From a virus (lineage: Duplodnaviria > Heunggongvirae > Uroviricota > Caudoviricetes), in the IMG/VR virus record IMGVR_UViG_2917865565_000006, positions 1-32,349 of that record: a stretch of 32,349 nucleotides of DNA. One strand, written 5' to 3'. The notes under the pieces were generated by a model. The model was not told the origin of the DNA. It did not search any database and saw only the letters and a program-made list of their open reading frames with translations. A program made the translations under genes and the position numbers. The first letter of the stretch is position 1; every line of letters begins with the position of its first letter. This document shows positions 1,090 through 6,791 of this stretch, piece after piece.

Positions 1090-1389
1090 TCAGCCAGTCT
1101 TTTGGTCTGAGTGGTGCAAGGTTGTTGAGTCTTGCCCAATGTGTGCGAGCGCCGGGGCTATTTGTCCGGCAGCGGGATCTGTCTCATCAAACATGAACCA
1201 GTCACGATATTTACGGAATCTTGGGTGTTTCAGAAGTCGCACTACCGCGTCATGTGAAATGGATGATTTCCCATTTTCGTACCCCACATAGGTAACGTAA
1301 TTAATACCTGTCATTTCAGCTACTTCCTTCTTCTTGAGGCGTTCAGACTCACGAATAAGTTTAAGTTTCTCACGAATCTCAATTGACAT
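1090..1389 (-). CDS. C: Immunity repressor C (P2 C family), 99 aa
   Basis: 99-aa minus-strand ORF between int and the divergent early operon; C-terminal GQIAPALAH tail as I recall for P2 C; N-terminal half appears divergent, suggesting a different immunity specificity. Confidence 0.8.
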   Translation of the reverse strand: MSIEIREKLKLIRESERLKKKEVAEMTGINYVTYVGYENGKSSISHDAVVRLLKHPRFRKYRDWFMFDETDPAAGQIAPALAHIGQDSTTLHHSDQKTG

Positions 1390-1493
1390 AATGAATCAGA
1401 TCTCTTATTTTTAATCCGTTGTGATATTCCACACCTAACTCTAGCCAACTCTAACTAGCTTTAGTTTGTGGAGCCAATTAGGAGAATAGCAAA
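1390..1493. promoter_or_regulatory. Divergent early/repressor promoter region (Pe/Pc analogue) with direct-repeat candidate operators
   Basis: 104-bp AT-rich gap between the divergent C and cox-like genes; direct repeats AACTCTA at 1437-1443 and 1447-1453 and CTAACT at 1435-1440 and 1451-1456; RBS AGGAG 9 nt before the ATG at 1494. Confidence 0.55.
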
Positions 1494-1850
1494 ATGAATG
1501 TCGGATCTGAAATTTCTGACGAGACAAGACAAGAAGTCTCAGTTCTTACAAAAGCAAAACGTCATTCAGTTAAATTGGCTGCTGTGCCTTCAGATTTGCT
1601 GTCGAAAGAGGGTTTTGCTCTTTACATAGGTAAGACACCACGCGCTGTAGCAGAAATGGCGAGAGCAGGCAAGCTCCCTGCGTTCTATATGACAGACCCA
1701 CTGAAGCCAGGGGGGAATGCTGAGTTATGGATTAATCGTCGTGAGTGGGACAAATATGCAGCTCAACTAGTCGATGAAGCTCCGACAGAATGGCATGACT
1801 GGAAGAACCGCATTAGTTATAGCAAGTCGAAATTAGGGCGTATGGTGTGA
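1494..1850 (+). CDS. Cox-like excisionase / early regulator (118 aa, longer than the 91 aa I recall for P2 Cox)
   Basis: First gene of the rightward early operon, opposite C; good RBS; GKLP..MTDP segment; assignment is by position and weak similarity only. Confidence 0.5.
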   Translation: MNVGSEISDETRQEVSVLTKAKRHSVKLAAVPSDLLSKEGFALYIGKTPRAVAEMARAGKLPAFYMTDPLKPGGNAELWINRREWDKYAAQLVDEAPTEWHDWKNRISYSKSKLGRMV

Positions 1851-1859
1851 GGGCATGTT

Positions 1860-2457
1860 ATGAACACTATAGTAGGAAACACGGCAGCTAAAAAAAATTC
1901 AATCGTTGATCATCGAGCTGCGCACGAGACTTTTGTCGATTGAAGGGCAATCTAACGTATCAGCCATAGTTGATGACATAGAAATTGAAGCGAAAAAATT
2001 AGAAGAAGAAGTTAATTTTCTGGCTTTACCTGTAAGAGCTGCAGAAATTGAGACTTTGACGCATTTAATTAAATGTGGATGTGTCAGGCTGGAAAATAAC
2101 AAAAGAGATGAACGTAATGAGATTATAAATAATTTACAAGAGTCATTTGCGTTAATCAGCCAGAATCAACATGCCCCAACTAAAACAAAAAGAAGCAAAT
2201 CAAGTAAATTTGAGGTTTTGCGTTTTGGTGATCTTTCTATTATTGGTTGCGAGCTAACCCCATTACGCAACTATGTGACTCTATACTGTAGAGCTTGTTA
2301 TGAAAATGACAGGTTTATCGGTCATGTGTACTACGGAGTATCAAAGTTATCGGGTGACGAAAAAGGTTATAGCGAATTTGATGCGCTGAGTATTATTAAT
2401 GCTGTAGAAAAATATGCGCCAGGAATGCAAAAATACTCATGGCGCAAAGTAGATTGA
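1860..2457 (+). CDS. Hypothetical protein in AT-rich moron island; probably starts at ATG 1860 and is broken by a +1 frameshift in an A8 run (1890-1897); the ORF track shows only 1906-2457
   Basis: Strong RBS GAGGG 7 nt upstream of ATG 1860; a 27-codon ORF in frame 0 becomes continuous with the 183-aa ORF if one A is removed from the A8 run (MNTIVGNTAAKK then IQSLIIELRTRLL...). No recognisable domain. Confidence 0.45.
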
Positions 2458-2459
2458 AA

Positions 2460-2666
2460 TTATTTTTCTTTATTCAGCTCTAAGTATTCGCCGATAGTAG
2501 CATGAAGATTTTTTAATTGCTCGAGTTGAATACTAATTGCAAGAACATTATCGCTTTTTAGGTTTAAGTCGGTATGAAGGTGTGCGAGTAGTCTCATCTT
2601 ACCCTCACTGACAATACCATCGATAGTGATTTTGTCTGGAAATACAGTAACAGTTTTTTTGTCCAT
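2460..2666 (-). CDS. Hypothetical small protein (68 aa from internal ATG), convergent with the upstream moron gene
   Basis: Minus-strand ORF; internal Met (MDKKTVTVFPDKITIDG...) preceded by AAGGTG RBS; the longer GTG-initiated form (to 2714) has no RBS. AT-rich. Confidence 0.45.
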   Translation of the reverse strand: MDKKTVTVFPDKITIDGIVSEGKMRLLAHLHTDLNLKSDNVLAISIQLEQLKNLHATIGEYLELNKEK

Positions 2667-2765
2667 TTTTACACCTTTTGTGGTTGGTTGTTTTTGGCGA
2701 TTCGATCTTACCACAAGACCATGTGCCGGACATGGCTAAAAACCGGCTCTGTTTCAGGAGGAGTT

Positions 2766-2936
2766 ATGCCGGAACCTCGTTGTATTGCTCAGTTATTGCG
2801 TAACGAAAGCCCAAGGGCGATTGACTTCACCATCACCCACGGTAAGGGGCGTAAGGGAATCATTATCCGCACCAAAAAACAGAGTCCGTTAAAAAAGGCT
2901 CTGACCTTTCTGAAAAGCCGGAGGGTATGGAAATGA
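2766..2936 (+). CDS. Small basic protein, orf78-like (56 aa)
   Basis: ATG at 2766 preceded by CAGGAGGAG RBS; immediately upstream of B and overlapping its start; position matches P2 orf78. Confidence 0.55.
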   Translation: MPEPRCIAQLLRNESPRAIDFTITHGKGRKGIIIRTKKQSPLKKALTFLKSRRVWK

Positions 2937-3433
2937 CAGTGATGACGCTCAATCTCGTTGAAAAACAGCCAGCAGCTATGCGCCGGATAATTGGTAAGCA
3001 TCTTGCCGTTCCTCGCTGGCAGGATACATGTGATTATTATAATCAGATGATGGAGCGCGAACGGCTAACAGTTTGCTTTCATGCGCAGTTAAAACAGCGT
3101 CACGCAACGATGCGTTTTGAAGAAATGAACGACGTCGAACGTGAACGACTGGTATGTGCAATTGATGAATTGCGTGGGGCATTCTCAAAACGTCGTCAGG
3201 TCGGTGCAAGTGAGTATGCATATATTAGTTTTTTAACAGTCAGTCAGCGCCGTACTTTATTTATGCATGCCGGATTGACTGAAAAAGAATTCAACCAGCC
3301 ATACTGGCGAATTAATGAAGAGTCATGTTACTGGCGTGATGCTTTATTCCGTGCATTACGTGAATTATTCAGTCTGTTTGAGTATGCACCGACAATTCTG
3401 ACGTCGGTAAAACCAGAGCAATATCTGCATTAA
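2933..3433 (+). CDS. B: Replication protein B (P2 gpB-like, 166 aa)
   Basis: Position in the early operon between cox/orf78 and orf80-83/A; length from the second ATG (2933) equals the 166 aa I recall for P2 B. Confidence 0.7.
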   Translation: MTVMTLNLVEKQPAAMRRIIGKHLAVPRWQDTCDYYNQMMERERLTVCFHAQLKQRHATMRFEEMNDVERERLVCAIDELRGAFSKRRQVGASEYAYISFLTVSQRRTLFMHAGLTEKEFNQPYWRINEESCYWRDALFRALRELFSLFEYAPTILTSVKPEQYLH

Positions 3434-3496
3434 GTAATTAACCAGAGTTTTTAACGCACTTAATCGTGCGGGGCTTCTTTTTGCCTGGAGAAAGTT

Positions 3497-3721
3497 ATGC
3501 ATACAGTTTCTGAAAATCAGTGCGGTAAATACGCATTACTGCTGCAACAGGCCAGAACCGAAGCACAGGCCGACGCTGCGACGCGCTTTTCTTCTCATCT
3601 TGATGCCATGATTCGCCACATCACAAAGGCGGAGTTATCCCGCGTGGAGATAGTCGAGCTGCTCAGTCAGGAGTCGGAAAAATTTCACAATATCGGATTG
3701 TCTCGCGGGGAGGTGCTTTGA
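3497..3721 (+). CDS. Early-operon hypothetical protein (orf80-like, 74 aa)
   Basis: ORF with GGAGAAAG RBS; stop overlaps the next start; synteny with the P2 orf80-83 cluster. Confidence 0.6.
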
Positions 3722-4023
3722 TGTCCTGTTCTCGTTCAGTTGTATTACTGAATAACGCCTTAAAAATCGCCGTTATGAAAAATGGCGATTTGTCTCTTAT
3801 TCAACTTGGTCTTGATAAAGAAAAACGCGAAATAACTGAGTCTGTTATCGCGATTTATCAGAACGAATTAAACCTCCTGTCTGATGTGGTCAATTTACTT
3901 GTTAAACGCGCTGTGTTTCACAAGCAAATCTCCTCCGTGGATGAACTGACGAAATTAACGACAGAAATCGCCAGCTATTGCGCTGATGAATTTAAAAACC
4001 TTAACGACAAAAGGAACTGGTAA
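3718..4023 (+). CDS. Early-operon hypothetical protein (orf81-like, 101 aa)
   Basis: Translationally coupled ORF (ATGA overlap with upstream gene) in the early operon. Confidence 0.6.
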
Positions 4024-4247
4024 TGCCGGACAACGTAGATTTTATTCAGGAACAACAGGCTGAATTACTGGAGCGCCAGATTAACGCGGCAAGGGTAAAA
4101 CATTGCGGTGCTTCTGCGCTGGTTTGCGAAGAGTGTGACGCGCCAATACCTGCTGCCCGTCGTGCAGCTTATCCGTCAGCCACGCGTTGTGTTTCCTGCC
4201 AGTCAGTCTTTGAAGCAAAAAACAAGCATTACCGGAGAATGGCATGA
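4023..4247 (+). CDS. TraR/DksA-family C4 zinc-finger protein (orf82-like, 74 aa)
   Basis: CEEC...16 aa...CVSC four-cysteine motif typical of TraR/DksA-type zinc fingers; coupled to neighbouring genes. Confidence 0.7.
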   Translation: MPDNVDFIQEQQAELLERQINAARVKHCGASALVCEECDAPIPAARRAAYPSATRCVSCQSVFEAKNKHYRRMA

Positions 4248-4519
4248 GTATTCGTATCGAAATTGGCGAACGTTATGTCGTTACCAGTGACAGCTTTCAG
4301 TTTATTCTCCACGAGAAAAAGAGAGCGGAAAGCGGTAAAAACGCTGGTCAGGAATGGCTGGCGGTGGTTGGTTATTACCCGAAATTAAGCCAGCTCGTTT
4401 CCGGCCTGATGCATCACGATATTCTGACCGGAAACGCAAAATCTTTTGCTGATTTAAACGCGCAGGTTGAGCAACTCAGCAAGCGTTGTTCAGAGGCTTT
4501 TGGCTCATATGGCCGTTAA
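4244..4519 (+). CDS. Early-operon hypothetical protein (orf83-like, 91 aa)
   Basis: ORF overlapping the start of A; position matches P2 orf83. Confidence 0.6.
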   Translation: MSIRIEIGERYVVTSDSFQFILHEKKRAESGKNAGQEWLAVVGYYPKLSQLVSGLMHHDILTGNAKSFADLNAQVEQLSKRCSEAFGSYGR

Positions 4520-6791
4520 AGCCTCCGGGCGTTTTGTCCCTCCGTCAGCATTTGCCGCAGGCACCGGTAAGGCGTTTACCGGTGCTTATGCATGGAACGC
4601 GCCACGCGAGGCCGTCGGGCGCGAAAGACCCCTTACACGTGACGAGATGCGTCAGGTGCAAGGTGTTTTATCCACGATTAACCGCCTGCCTTACTTTTTG
4701 CGCTCGCTGTTTACTTCACGCTATGACTACATCCGGCGCAATAAAAGCCCGGTGCACGGGTTTTATTTCCTCACATCCACTTTTCAGCGTCGTTTATGGC
4801 CGCGCATTGAGCGTGTGAATCAGCGCCATGAAATGAACACCGACGCGTCGTTGCTGTTTCTGGCAGAGCGTGACCACTATGCGCGCCTGCCGGGAATGAA
4901 TGACAAGGAGCTGAAAAAGTTTGCTGCCCGTATCTCATCGCAGCTTTTCATGATGTATGAGGAACTCTGCGATGCCTGGGTGGATGCGCATGGCGAAAAA
5001 GAATCGCTGTTTACGGATGAGGCGCAGGCACATCTGTATGGTCATGTTGCTGGCGCTGCACGTGCTTTCAATATTTCCCCGCTTTACTGGAAAAAATACC
5101 GTAAAGGGCAGATGACCACGAGGCAGGCATATTCTGCTATTGCCCGCCTGTTTAACGATGAGTGGTGGACTCATCAGCTTAAAGGCCAGCGTATGCGCTG
5201 GCATGAGGCGTTACTGATTGCTGTCGGGGAGGTCAATAAAGACCGTTCTCCTTATGCCAGTAAACATGCCATTCGTGATGTGCGTGCGCGCCGCCAGGCA
5301 AATCTGGAATTTCTTAAATCGTGTGACCTCGAAAACAGGGAAACCGGCGAGCGCATCGACCTTATCAGTAAGGTGATGGGCAGTATTTCTAATCCTGAAA
5401 TTCGCCGGATGGAGCTGATGAACACCATCGCCGGTATTGAGCGTTACGCCGCTGCAGAGGGTGATGTGGGGATGTTTATCACGCTGACCGCGCCGTCAAA
5501 GTATCACCCGACACGTCAGGTCGGAAAAGGCGAAAGTAAAACCGTCCAGCTAAATCACGGCTGGAACGATGAGGCATTTAATCCAAAGGATGCGCAGCGT
5601 TATCTCTGCCATATCTGGAGCCTGATGCGCACGGCATTCAAGGATAATGATTTACAGGTCTACGGTTTGCGTGTCGTCGAGCCACACCACGACGGAACGC
5701 CGCACTGGCATATGATGCTTTTTTGTAATCCACGCCAGCGTAACCAGATTATTGAAATCATGCGTCGCTACGCGCTCAAAGAGGATGGCGACGAAAGAGG
5801 AGCTGCGCGAAACCGTTTTCAGGCAAAACACCTTAACCGGGGCGGTGCTGCGGGATATATCGCGAAATACATTTCAAAAAACATCGACGGCTATGCACTG
5901 GATGGTCAGCTCGATAACGATACCGGCAGGCCGCTGAAAGACACTGCCGCGGCTGTTACCGCATGGGCGTCAACGTGGCGTATTCCGCAATTTAAAACTG
6001 TTGGCCTGCCGACAATGGGGGCTTACCGTGAACTACGCAAATTACCTCGCGGCGTCAGCATTGCTGATGAGTTTGACGAACGCGTCGAGGCTGCACGCGC
6101 TGCCGCAGACAGTGGCGATTTTGCGCTGTATATCAGCGCGCAGGGTGGGGCAAATGTCCCGCGCGATTGTCAGACTGTCAGGGTCGCCCGTAGTCCGTCG
6201 GATGACGTTAACGAGTACGAGGAAGAAGTCGAGAGAGTGGTCGGCATTTACGCACCGCATCTCGGCGCACGTCATATTCATATCACCAGAACGACGGACT
6301 GGCGCATTGTTCCGAAAGTGCCGGTCGTTGAGCCTTTGACTTTAAAAAGCGGCATCGCCGCGCCTCGGAGTCCTGTCAATAACTGTGGAAAGCTCACCGG
6401 CGGTGATACTTCGTTACCGGCTCCCACACCGACTGAGCATGCTGCAGCGGTGTTAAATTTAATAGATGAAGGGATTCTAAGTTGGACCGAGCCAGGCATT
6501 ATGAAGGTACTTAGAGACTTATTGAGTAATGAACTGAAATGCAGTAATCGTTCACAGCAGAGCTTTACCCCTTTCATTGGTCGAAGCTACTTTCCTGCCC
6601 CATCCGCCCGGTTGACAAGGCAGGAGAGAAAGACTATCCCGAAAATTAAGGTTCTTCTTGCACAAAGTGACATTCAGGCTAGTTATTGGGAGCTTGAAGC
6701 TCTCGCTCGCGGAGCTGTTTTGGATTTTGGGCATAAGCGTTTTAAATTTGATAACGATATCGACTTTTTTGACAGACAGCGTGAGTGGTAG
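4509..6791 (+). CDS. A: Replication initiation endonuclease gpA (rolling-circle initiator), 760 aa from ATG 4509
   Basis: Large ORF at the end of the early operon; HWHMMLF metal-binding motif; length from 4509 is within one residue of the 761 aa I recall for P2 A. The ORF-track start at 4467 is probably an in-frame extension. Confidence 0.9.
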   Translation: MAVKASGRFVPPSAFAAGTGKAFTGAYAWNAPREAVGRERPLTRDEMRQVQGVLSTINRLPYFLRSLFTSRYDYIRRNKSPVHGFYFLTSTFQRRLWPRIERVNQRHEMNTDASLLFLAERDHYARLPGMNDKELKKFAARISSQLFMMYEELCDAWVDAHGEKESLFTDEAQAHLYGHVAGAARAFNISPLYWKKYRKGQMTTRQAYSAIARLFNDEWWTHQLKGQRMRWHEALLIAVGEVNKDRSPYASKHAIRDVRARRQANLEFLKSCDLENRETGERIDLISKVMGSISNPEIRRMELMNTIAGIERYAAAEGDVGMFITLTAPSKYHPTRQVGKGESKTVQLNHGWNDEAFNPKDAQRYLCHIWSLMRTAFKDNDLQVYGLRVVEPHHDGTPHWHMMLFCNPRQRNQIIEIMRRYALKEDGDERGAARNRFQAKHLNRGGAAGYIAKYISKNIDGYALDGQLDNDTGRPLKDTAAAVTAWASTWRIPQFKTVGLPTMGAYRELRKLPRGVSIADEFDERVEAARAAADSGDFALYISAQGGANVPRDCQTVRVARSPSDDVNEYEEEVERVVGIYAPHLGARHIHITRTTDWRIVPKVPVVEPLTLKSGIAAPRSPVNNCGKLTGGDTSLPAPTPTEHAAAVLNLIDEGILSWTEPGIMKVLRDLLSNELKCSNRSQQSFTPFIGRSYFPAPSARLTRQERKTIPKIKVLLAQSDIQASYWELEALARGAVLDFGHKRFKFDNDIDFFDRQREW

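What the first reader, a model, noticed from the sequence alone, without database searches (positions are those of the whole stretch)
1851..2760. Second AT-rich moron island in the early operon: convergent gene pair of unknown function
Between the cox-like gene and orf78 there is an island of clearly lower GC with a rightward gene of about 195 aa (after frame correction) and a convergent 68-aa gene whose stops are 2 bp apart. Neither shows a domain I recognise. Morons in temperate-phage early regions are often superinfection-exclusion, abortive-infection or toxin-antitoxin modules expressed from the prophage, making this a second candidate for an undescribed function.
Basis: seen in the sequence. 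Interest (0 to 1): 0.65.

Follow-up and report, generated by a model that had tools for sequence, protein, structure and literature searches.

The report
Convergent gene cassette in P2-like prophage
The AT-rich island is real: it is one version of a swappable cassette in P2-like phages, made of an early gene (broken here by one extra A), a small opposing gene with its own promoter, and a conserved folded element, and no protein in it has a known function.

Summary
Window 1851-2765 is a 37% GC insert (window average 51%) between cox and the orf78 homologue of a P2-like prophage. It holds a rightward gene and a convergent 68-aa gene whose stops lie 2 bp apart.

The rightward gene is frameshifted here. 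It has an A8 run where all 7 relatives examined have A7 and an intact 198-aa protein.

Both proteins are near-orphans with no Pfam, PHROGs, PADLOC, NCBIfam or PDB match. They are nonetheless conserved as a pair in five diverged P2-like prophage lineages.

The island is one allele of a cassette: early gene(s), an opposing small gene, and a conserved ~70-nt element. The element carries a putative extended -10 promoter for the small gene. It also has stems (P1, S1, S2) with compensatory changes that fit a stem-loop plus pseudoknot. It occurs in at least 100 prophage loci across Enterobacterales, with about 18 rightward and 17 leftward gene families that recombine.

Function was not shown. My best guess (0.35) is an early effector plus a lysogen-expressed small partner, laid out like a pore-forming colicin operon. 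The main rival (0.3) is two independent accessory genes. The classical toxin-antitoxin or known-defence reading is not supported.

The parts
1383..1411 (+). Early promoter (Pe-like) that would drive cox and the rightward island gene
   Evidence: TTGACA-17-TATTTT, 10 of 12 matches. It sits between the C repressor gene (1090-1389, - strand) and cox. Calling it Pe follows from the known P2 layout; transcription was not tested.
1494..1850 (+). cox homologue; left border of the island
   Evidence: Pfam PF10743, E 2.4e-29; phrog_1831, E 6e-60.
1860..2457 (+). Rightward island gene ('p1' family). It encodes 198 aa in relatives and is frameshifted here.
   Evidence: Relatives with A7 encode 198 aa. 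A Shine-Dalgarno GAGGG lies 6 nt before the ATG. Only 5 distant relatives were found among 1.84 billion representative proteins. The AF2 model is low confidence: a helical N-terminal half, a disordered K/S/T-rich linker and a beta-rich C-terminal domain.
1890..1897 (+). A8 homopolymer that causes the frameshift (A7 in all relatives examined)
   Evidence: Alignment A1; run lengths in 7 loci.
2460..2666 (-). Convergent 68-aa gene ('m1' family)
   Evidence: ATG at 2666, AAGGTG at 2677->2672. Homologues at 37-62% identity sit in the same convergent position in L010, L012 and L151. No family or PDB match.
2406..2446 (-). Intrinsic terminator for the leftward transcript, embedded in the 3' end of the rightward gene
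   Evidence: Hairpin 2446->2415, dG -15 kcal/mol, z -3.5, followed by UAUUUUUCU. The + strand has no U-tract directly after the same hairpin. Each of the 8 loci checked also has a hairpin after its leftward gene, but only about half of these are followed by a U-rich tract; L007 and L010 have strong hairpins with no U tail.
2705..2713 (-). Putative extended -10 promoter (TGGTAAGAT) of the 68-aa gene; predicted start near 2698
   Evidence: TGn+TAnnnT is kept across at least 14 different hexamer variants in related loci, while the middle bases vary. There is no -35 match. Inferred, not tested.
2676..2718 (+). P1/P2 stem-loop module of the conserved element (UUUUGUGGU ... ACCACAAGA enclosing a small hairpin)
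   Evidence: The + strand minimum-energy fold pairs 2676-2684 with 2710-2718. The same architecture appears in 76 of 87 distinct related modules. Compensatory variants are TTCTGG/CCAGAA and CTGTT/AACAG.
2719..2747 (+). Conserved double-helix core. S1 is 2719-2723 with 2731-2735. S2 is 2725-2729 (the loop of S1) with 2743-2747. The linker is 2736-2742. The geometry is that of an H-type pseudoknot.
   Evidence: It occurs once in the window, with 0 expected by chance. S1 is 99.4% paired and two of its pairs show double changes (AU->CG in 4 rows, UA->CG in 3 rows). S2 shows GC->AT compensations at pairs 5 and 6. G.U pairs occur mostly in the + sense, and the linker length varies from 4 to 8 nt in the tally. 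No Rfam match.
2766..2936 (+). orf78 homologue (56 aa, pI 11.65); right border. The early operon continues into B (2927-3433).
   Evidence: phrog_273, E 7.5e-40; pI. Similarity to insert-free P2-like phages resumes at ~2772.

Best explanation
The island is one allele of a cassette-type accessory locus in the early region of P2-like phages.

Anatomy (shown). A rightward gene is fused to the Pe early operon directly after cox. A small convergent gene abuts it. A conserved ~70-nt element lies between the small gene's start and the next early gene.

Regulatory logic (inferred from sequence).
- The rightward gene is made only when Pe fires, on infection or induction.
- The 68-aa gene is read leftward from an extended -10 promoter inside the conserved element. 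Its transcript ends at a hairpin plus U-tract inside the rightward gene's 3' end. It can therefore be expressed in the lysogen and would be opposed by convergent Pe transcription during lytic growth.
- Pe transcripts must cross ~300 nt of untranslated antisense sequence to reach orf78, B and A. The conserved stem-loop plus pseudoknot sits at the end of that gap, just before the next ribosome-binding site. I take it to be a cis-acting RNA that secures expression of the downstream essential genes.

Function (a proposal, not shown). The pair works like a pore-forming colicin operon, in which an inducible effector gene is followed by a convergent, constitutively expressed small immunity gene and transcription reads through to the downstream gene. 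The early protein would act on the host or on competing phages. The small protein, present in lysogens, would neutralise it, whether it comes from leaky expression or from an incoming relative. In this window the effector gene is broken by +1 A, which leaves an orphan small gene.
For: Anatomy and borders.

The pair is kept together in five diverged lineages at the same site: the window type, L151 (49% identity for the large protein's C-terminal domain, about 60% for the small protein), Salmonella L010 (31% and 37%), L012 (30% and 40%) and L067.

Nearly all of the more than 80 element-bearing loci examined carry a leftward ORF starting just left of the element. About 90% also carry an abutting rightward ORF. 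No clear locus has a rightward gene but no leftward gene; the only locus where none was called (L004) has an IS3 insertion between that gene and the element.

A few loci have the leftward gene alone (for example L023, L055, L059), like orphan immunity genes.

The C-terminal tails of the rightward proteins track the leftward gene family even on different N-terminal domains.

Promoter-like and terminator features.

Element covariation.

The leftward proteins are mostly 56-100 aa and hydrophilic, and some look acidic by eye (pI was computed only for the window's 68-aa protein: 6.25). This is the profile of inhibitors rather than of enzymes or membrane exclusion proteins.

The colicin operon layout comes from established knowledge, not from a tool.
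Against: - No expression, toxicity or binding data exist.
- Co-inheritance of the tail and the small gene is also what homologous recombination would produce if it is anchored in conserved N-terminal domains on the left and the conserved element on the right. The small gene's terminator also lies inside the tail's coding sequence. Linkage therefore does not prove interaction.
- Leftward families pair with several unrelated rightward families. m1 pairs with p1 and p2; m2 pairs with p2, p3 and p12.
- An IS3 element separates the small gene from its putative promoter in two E. coli genomes that keep the rightward gene intact.
- I know of no precedent for effector-immunity pairs in phage early operons.
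- The AF2 models are too poor to test an interface.
- Strand assignment of the element rests on few G.U cases. The + strand folds better in only 59 of 87 modules.
Confidence: 0.35

Rival explanations
1. Two independent accessory genes share a hotspot. The small leftward gene is a true moron expressed from the prophage, for example an inhibitor of an incoming phage's protein, superinfection exclusion or host modulation. The rightward gene is an unrelated early-lytic accessory gene for host takeover or counter-defence. They sit together only because the conserved element and cox provide the recombination anchors.
For: Rightward and leftward families mix and match: 18 by 17 families and 31 combinations. 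Some cassettes have the leftward gene only. The rightward gene has no promoter of its own, while the leftward gene has both a promoter-like site and a terminator. The window keeps an intact small gene beside a broken large gene. The literature reports a minor defence hotspot between integrase and primase in P2 (PMC13586616). Early-operon accessory genes such as fil and dhr are known in phage 186 (my knowledge).
Against: p1 proteins with the APG-type tail sit next to m1 in all five diverged lineages despite intense shuffling at the locus. Abutting convergent pairs are near-universal. The small proteins have no defence-like domains and no PADLOC hits.
Confidence: 0.3
2. It is a classical toxin-antitoxin or abortive-infection defence module expressed from the prophage.
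For: It is a two-gene, AT-rich, horizontally exchanged module in a prophage. Many prophage hotspots hold such systems (PMC9122126).
Against: The genes are convergent, not co-transcribed. The larger gene depends on Pe, which the C repressor should silence in lysogens. There are no toxin, antitoxin or defence profile hits in Pfam, PADLOC or NCBIfam for these or for 20 other cargo families. The large gene is frameshifted here without loss of the small one.
Confidence: 0.1
3. The cassette is chiefly a regulatory device for the lysis-lysogeny switch. Leftward transcription, and possibly the small protein, dampens read-through from Pe into the replication genes. The conserved palindromic core is a DNA operator or recombination site rather than an RNA.
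For: The face-to-face promoter layout resembles Pe/Pc of P2 (my knowledge). S1 is a perfect palindrome centred at about -29 of the putative leftward promoter. The cassette occurs either after cox or between C and cox.
Against: The leftward ORFs are conserved as proteins within families and differ completely between families. S2 is not symmetric with S1, tolerates linker lengths of 4-8 nt and shows compensatory and G.U changes, which fits a folded strand better than a fixed-geometry operator. Most P2-like phages manage without the cassette.
Confidence: 0.12
4. The two ORFs are non-functional remnants or annotation noise in AT-rich foreign DNA.
For: Distribution is very narrow: one 90%-identity cluster each among 5.8 billion proteins. 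There is a frameshift in the window. Among near-identical alleles, 5 changes are non-synonymous and 4 synonymous.
Against: Both proteins have homologues at 30-62% identity with conserved motifs and in-frame indels at the same site in other genera. Seven of 8 copies of the large gene (7 relatives plus the window) are intact.
Confidence: 0.03

Closest known systems
Pore-forming colicin operons (colicin A, E1 type: colicin gene, convergent immunity gene, lysis gene)
   Same: An inducible promoter drives an effector gene. A small gene on the opposite strand with its own constitutive promoter lies directly downstream, 3' end to 3' end. The inducible transcript must read through the antisense of the small gene to reach further genes. 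Variable effector ends travel with the small gene. This layout is from my knowledge.
   Different: There is no sequence or fold similarity to colicins or immunity proteins. Colicin immunity proteins of this class are membrane proteins, whereas the 68-aa protein is soluble and hydrophilic. The context is a phage early operon, not a plasmid SOS operon. Toxicity and neutralisation are untested.
Phage morons and P2 lysogenic-conversion genes (old, tin, Z/fun)
   Same: It is AT-rich foreign DNA inserted between conserved genes. The leftward gene has promoter-like and terminator features of its own, and content varies between otherwise similar phages.
   Different: The location differs: cox-orf78, not A-Q or the tail-region Z/fun site. 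The rightward gene lacks its own promoter. There is no similarity to old, tin or fun or to any PADLOC model.
P2/P4 defence hotspots (Rousset et al. 2022, PMC9122126; Moura de Sousa et al. 2026, PMC13586616)
   Same: Cargo is swapped rapidly between conserved flanks and chimeric proteins arise by recombination. [quoted passage not shown]
   Different: The passages I searched in those papers describe no convergent-pair architecture and no conserved element; I did not read either paper in full. The cargo here is not recognised by defence or anti-defence profiles.
Type II toxin-antitoxin modules
   Same: Two small adjacent genes on a mobile element, one of them a small soluble protein.
   Different: The genes are convergent rather than a co-directional bicistronic operon. 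They are regulated differently and have no known toxin or antitoxin domains.
Compact cis-acting RNA structures in phage transcripts (T4 gene 32 leader pseudoknot; HK022 put antitermination stem-loops)
   Same: A short, strongly conserved structured module lies in an early transcript just upstream of a translation start. It has two adjacent structured units and the geometry of an H-type pseudoknot. The comparison itself comes from my knowledge.
   Different: There is no sequence relation and no Rfam family. The function, the binding partner and even the active strand are unproven. The element also overlaps a putative promoter on the other strand.

Membership tests
Moron (autonomous transcription unit inserted in a phage genome) | Own promoter and own terminator flanking the gene | tested here: inconclusive
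   The 68-aa gene has an extended -10-like site conserved across variants and a hairpin plus U-tract, z -3.5. This is in silico only. The 198-aa gene has no promoter: it starts 9 bp after cox.
Moron (autonomous transcription unit inserted in a phage genome) | Base composition differs from the flanks and the insert is absent from close relatives | tested here: met
   37.3% GC against 45-51%. The insert is absent from P2, P24E6b and most P2-like phages. It is present in ~10 of 5426 complete E. coli genomes.
Moron (autonomous transcription unit inserted in a phage genome) | Expressed from the repressed prophage | not testable with these tools
   This needs RNA-seq or reporter data from a lysogen.
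Type II toxin-antitoxin system | Co-directional, co-transcribed gene pair | tested here: not met
   The genes are convergent, with stops 2 bp apart.
Type II toxin-antitoxin system | Recognisable toxin and/or antitoxin domain | tested here: not met
   No hits in Pfam, PADLOC, NCBIfam or PDB profiles.
Known anti-phage defence systems (PADLOC-DB v2) | Match to a model of a known or candidate defence protein | tested here: not met
   No hit for either window protein. Ten other cargo representatives gave only one weak sub-threshold JAB match, E 0.0014.
Described P2 variable loci (old/tin between A and Q; Z/fun in the tail region) | Location at those two sites | tested here: not met
   The island lies between cox and orf78. 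This is consistent only with the minor 'integrase-primase' hotspot of PMC13586616.
Effector/immunity (colicin-like or polymorphic-toxin-like) pair | Variable effector end co-inherited with a small adjacent partner gene; orphan partner genes exist | tested here: inconclusive
   The pattern is present. It is equally expected from recombination anchored in the conserved flanks.
Effector/immunity (colicin-like or polymorphic-toxin-like) pair | Effector is toxic and the partner binds and neutralises it | not testable with these tools
   The AF2 models have low confidence (pLDDT 48.6 and 55.5). No complex prediction was available.
H-type RNA pseudoknot | Two helices, the 5' strand of the second lying in the loop of the first, both supported by covariation | tested here: inconclusive
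   S1 has 2 pairs with double changes and 99.4% of cells paired. S2 has GC->AT compensations at 2 pairs plus G.U pairs and a variable linker. Whether the two helices form together or are alternatives, and on which strand, was not resolved.
Any Rfam 15 family | Covariance-model match | tested here: not met
   No match at E<=1 in 1300-3600 on either strand. No tRNA or tmRNA.

The most novel reading that the evidence does not exclude
The cox-orf78 island is a member of an undescribed, RNA-marked cassette system in the early operons of P2-like phages across Enterobacterales. A conserved stem-loop plus pseudoknot, also carrying the leftward promoter, serves as a portable expression and insulation platform. 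Next to it, dozens of unknown 'early effector plus lysogen-expressed small partner' pairs are exchanged, most likely as weapons and shields in competition between related phages. On this reading the pseudoknot would be a new class of cis-regulatory phage RNA.
Probability: 0.2. Interest if true: 0.8.

Novelty: new variant of a known kind. Interest (0 to 1): 0.55.

Why it matters
If the reading is right, P2-like prophages carry a third variable locus. These prophages are present in about 30% of complete E. coli genomes.

The locus has a fixed architecture and a sequence tag, the conserved element, that makes every allele findable. A single 24-nt pattern recovered 78 viral contigs and 19 stretches in GTDB representative genomes of 10 genera. 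These held about 35 protein families with essentially no annotation.

That is a defined and experimentally tractable pool of candidate phage-phage or phage-host interaction genes. It also includes a candidate new structured RNA that can be tested by compensatory mutagenesis.

For this particular window the practical point is smaller. The large gene is broken, so only the 68-aa gene and the element can be functional here.

Tried and rejected
Searches that found nothing:
- Profile searches of both proteins and of 20 other cargo representatives (Pfam, PHROGs, PADLOC, NCBIfam, PDB sequence profiles) gave nothing usable. The exceptions were a 186-type CII in L091 and the uninformative 'ECs1072 family' name for m4.
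- The word-indexed homologue search found only the proteins' own clusters. tblastn against 50,697 phage records found no match.
- Back-translated scans for the small protein in GTDB representative genomes found nothing. An alignment of the large family was too divergent to scan with.

Structure prediction:
- AF2 of the 198-aa protein gave pLDDT 48.6 alone and 55.5 with 6 sequences.
- No prediction quota was left for the 68-aa protein.

Ideas about the element that I considered and dropped:
- Known RNA family: no Rfam hit.
- tRNA-like 3' end, suggested by GGCGATTCGATC...CCA: ARAGORN found nothing and the inner hairpin is not conserved between classes.
- Sigma-54 promoter (GG-N10-GC in TGGCTAAAACCCGGCA): the match is poor and the linker length varies.
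- Rightward sigma-70 promoter: no acceptable spacing.
- Intrinsic terminator formed by S2: the 3' tract is not consistently U-rich.
- Thermodynamics alone do not support the structure (z -1.08). The case rests on covariation.

Other:
- The standard promoter scan missed the leftward promoter because it has no -35, and missed the terminator because the loop exceeds 8 nt.
- The short leftward proteins of L017 and BUCT2930 looked similar by eye but are not (E 1.6).
Full report
**Context**

The window is a P2-like (Peduovirus-type) prophage. From the left end it carries:
- an integrase (1-996, - strand);
- a C-type repressor (1090-1389, - strand);
- a Pe-like promoter (1383-1411);
- cox (1494-1850; Pfam Phage_Cox, E 2.4e-29);
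- the island;
- an orf78 homologue (2766-2936; phrog_273);
- B (2927-3433);
- homologues of orf80-83 (by position; only some relatives carry DUF annotations), then the A replication gene from 4467.

**Checking the observation**

The island is real.
- Composition: positions 1851-2760 are 37.3% GC, against 50.8% for the whole window and about 45% for the flanking genes.
- Borders: P2, P24E6b and most sequenced P2-like phages join cox to orf78 directly. Similarity to them stops at the cox stop codon and resumes at about 2772.
- Convergent gene: it is exactly as described. It has an ATG at 2666 preceded by AAGGTG, encodes 68 aa and stops at 2460-2462. This is 2 bp from the TGA (2455-2457) of the rightward gene.
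ATG 1860 runs into a stop at 1941-1943 because of an A8 run at 1890-1897.
- Four complete E. coli genomes and three IMG/VR contigs carry the same island at 99-99.7% identity (identities for the genomes). All seven have A7 and an intact 198-aa ORF, annotated 'hypothetical protein'.
- In this window the gene is therefore either a null allele or a homopolymer sequencing error.

**Are the genes real, and what are they?**

Neither protein matches anything in Pfam, PHROGs, PADLOC, NCBIfam or PDB sequence profiles.

The word-indexed search of 5.8 billion proteins found only each protein's own 90%-identity cluster.

An exhaustive HMMER scan of 1.84 billion representatives found five distant relatives of the 198-aa protein at 30-49% identity. 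I could place four of the five:
- one in Salmonella Manhattan (L010);
- one in a Logan assembly (L012);
- one in a 466-kb metagenome contig (L151);
- relatives of the fourth in IMG/VR contigs (L016-L019).

All lie at the same place in P2-like prophages, directly after cox.

In L010, L012 and L151 the neighbour is a convergent 68-aa homologue of the window's small protein. These share 37-62% identity and the motifs V.V(F/Y)P..IT..G and HLHT(D/N)L. Both ORFs are therefore protein-coding genes kept over long divergence.

The large protein aligns as three parts:
- a helical N-terminal half with an E.L.HLIK.G motif;
- a K/S/T-rich linker;
- a beta-rich C-terminal domain with the motif FGD..G.E..P....(Y/F)SR.YY.NG.H.G..YYG.

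AlphaFold gave only low-confidence models (pLDDT 48.6 and 55.5). Fold searches on them returned generic helical hits, which I disregard.

**The island is one allele of a cassette**

Other P2-like prophages carry unrelated convergent pairs at the same place:
- E. coli BUCT2930: 154 aa rightward and 64 aa leftward;
- E. coli L3Cip3 and Yersinia phages vB_YpM_115 and 117: 62 aa rightward and 58 aa leftward.

All share a conserved stretch between the leftward gene's start and the next early gene.

A 24-nt pattern from that stretch (window 2718-2741) occurs once in the window, with none expected by chance. The same pattern occurs elsewhere:
- in 78 IMG/VR contigs;
- in a few GenBank phages (Salmonella SEN4 and SEN5, Yersinia vB_YenM_42.18);
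- in GTDB representatives of Escherichia albertii, Pectobacterium, Xenorhabdus, Serratia, Pantoea, Brenneria, Sodalis, Erwinia, Izhakiella and Kosakonia.

In every locus inspected, the element lies to the right of a leftward ORF of 43-159 aa. It lies to the left of the next early gene. That gene is usually an orf78-like gene. In nine contigs it is cox itself, so the cassette there sits between C and cox. In one contig the cassette follows a 186-type cII gene.

About 90% of loci also have a rightward ORF abutting the leftward one.

Clustering gave 17 leftward and 18 rightward families in 31 combinations. Of the 20 representatives I scanned, essentially none has any annotation.

In E. coli, 1669 of 5426 complete genomes carry a P2-type orf78-B. 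About 60 of the 5426 have an element-bearing cassette detectable by megablast, and about 10 have this island.

**Regulatory anatomy**

*Rightward gene.* It starts 9 bp after cox with a GAGGG ribosome-binding site and no promoter. It must therefore be read from Pe and be silent in a stable lysogen. This is an inference from the P2 paradigm.

*Leftward gene, promoter.* On the - strand the element contains TGGTAAGAT (2713->2705). In related loci at least 14 different hexamers occupy this position. All keep TG-n-TA...T while the middle bases vary, which is the signature of an extended -10 promoter. There is no -35.

*Leftward gene, terminator.*
- Downstream of the stop codon, inside the last codons of the rightward gene, lies a hairpin. 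It spans 2446->2415 (dG -15 kcal/mol, z -3.5) and is followed by UAUUUUUCU. The + strand has no U-tract directly after it.
- Each of the 8 loci checked has a hairpin after its leftward gene. Only about half of these are followed by a U-rich tract.

The small gene is therefore an autonomous leftward unit of about 300 nt. It is opposed by Pe transcription, and Pe transcripts must cross about 300 untranslated nucleotides to reach orf78, B and A.

**The conserved element is structured**

Relaxed pattern scans left one helix free at a time, and both helices then showed compensatory variation.
- S1: CCATG/CATGG becomes CCCTG/CAGGG and CCACG/CGTGG. In the formal count, S1 is 99.4% paired and two of its pairs show double changes. 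No shuffle out of 500 reached the observed covariation score.
- S2: this pairs the loop of S1 with a downstream CCGGC. GCCGGG/CCCGGC becomes GCCGAG/CTCGGC and GCCGGA/TCCGGC. There are G.T pairs in the + sense in five distinct cores, against two in the - sense. The linker varies from 4 to 8 nt in the tally.
- P1: upstream, TTGTGGT pairs with ACCACAA around a variable GC-rich hairpin in 76 of 87 distinct modules. Its compensatory variants are TTCTGG/CCAGAA and CTGTT/AACAG.

The geometry is a stem-loop followed by an H-type pseudoknot, or alternatively two competing hairpins.

Rfam has no match. Thermodynamic z-scores alone are unremarkable. The + strand is only modestly favoured.

I conclude that there is a conserved folded element. 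It most likely acts as RNA in the early transcript just before the next ribosome-binding site, and it overlaps the leftward promoter. Its function is unknown. Candidate roles, all inferred:
- insulating or stabilising the downstream early mRNA after the antisense gap;
- countering polarity;
- acting as a binding site for a conserved factor.

**What the proteins do**

Nothing here shows function. Two readings fit the anatomy.

*(a) Effector plus cognate small partner.* The layout resembles a pore-forming colicin operon.
- Points in favour:
  - The p1 proteins with the APG-type tail sit next to m1 in all five diverged lineages.
  - No clear locus has a rightward gene without a leftward one.
  - Orphan leftward genes exist.
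  - C-terminal tails of p1 and p2 proteins track the leftward family even on different N-terminal domains.
- Caveat: recombination anchored in conserved N-terminal domains and in the element would produce the same linkage. In addition, my survey was baited with the element, so rightward-only inserts would have been missed.

*(b) Two independent accessory genes sharing a hotspot.* In its favour are the extensive mixing of families and the different regulation of the two genes.

I rate (a) at 0.35 and (b) at 0.30. A classical toxin-antitoxin or known-defence module is unlikely, for three reasons: the genes are convergent, there are no profile hits, and the large gene depends on Pe.

**Comparison with the literature**

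The P2 hotspots described by Rousset et al. (PMC9122126) lie elsewhere. Moura de Sousa et al. 2026 (PMC13586616) note a minor 'integrase-primase' defence hotspot. I searched these and two other papers by keyword rather than reading them in full. In the passages returned I found no description of the convergent-pair architecture or of the conserved element.

**Verdict**

- The locus is a new variant of a known kind (a phage accessory hotspot).
- It has an unexplained conserved structured element.
- The gene function is unknown.

Noticed in passing
window 1890-1897: An A8 run frameshifts the 198-aa gene. All 7 other copies examined have A7. This could be a homopolymer sequencing error, a real null allele or a slippage-prone tract.
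   Followed up: partly
L004 (E. coli 2013C-4830; also 2012C-4227), locus 3932-5160: An IS3-family element is inserted between the start of the 68-aa gene and the conserved element (window-equivalent about 2686-2690). This cuts the small gene off from its putative promoter while the 198-aa gene stays intact.
   Followed up: partly
L131 (E. coli TUM11352 'plasmid' pMTY11352_3) and L003: The 88-kb 'plasmid' carries chromosomal genes (dmsBC, ycaC, ycaD, pflA) plus the prophage left end. The chromosomal copy of the same region is full of frameshifts. This is probably an assembly artefact rather than a plasmid-borne prophage.
   Followed up: no
L030, L035, L038, L047, L053, L066, L070, L085, L090: In these P2-like contigs the cassette (rightward gene, leftward gene, element) lies between the C repressor gene and cox, not after cox. 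The cassette therefore occupies more than one site in the early region.
   Followed up: partly
L091 (and L134): The element and a leftward gene (158 aa in L091) follow a 186-type cII gene (PF06892, E 2.9e-34 in L091). The cassette therefore also occurs in 186-like phages.
   Followed up: no
L104 (two elements ~530 nt apart); L132/L133 (E. albertii, same contig); L145/L147/L148 (Xenorhabdus bakwenae): Some contigs or genomes hold two or three copies of the element. L104 may have tandem cassettes.
   Followed up: no
Rightward cargo proteins of several families (p1, p2 tails, p6, p15, p16, p18), for example window 2299-2346: A short motif, roughly R-x-Y-[YF]-x-N-G-x-H-x-G-x-[IV]-[YF]-Y-G, recurs in otherwise unrelated rightward cargo proteins. 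By eye it resembles a single MORN-variant repeat, but no Pfam model reaches significance.
   Followed up: partly
window 2766-2936: The orf78 homologue immediately downstream of the element is extremely basic (56 aa, pI 11.65) and of unknown function. A nucleic-acid-binding role, possibly on the adjacent element, is conceivable but was not tested. P2 has orf78 without the element.
   Followed up: no
L022 (IMGVR_UViG_3300031414_000675): A 113-135-aa rightward protein carrying the window protein's E.L.HLIK.G..RLEN motif sits in a cassette. The phage has a different, CI-like 199-aa repressor, which shows module exchange across immunity types.
   Followed up: no
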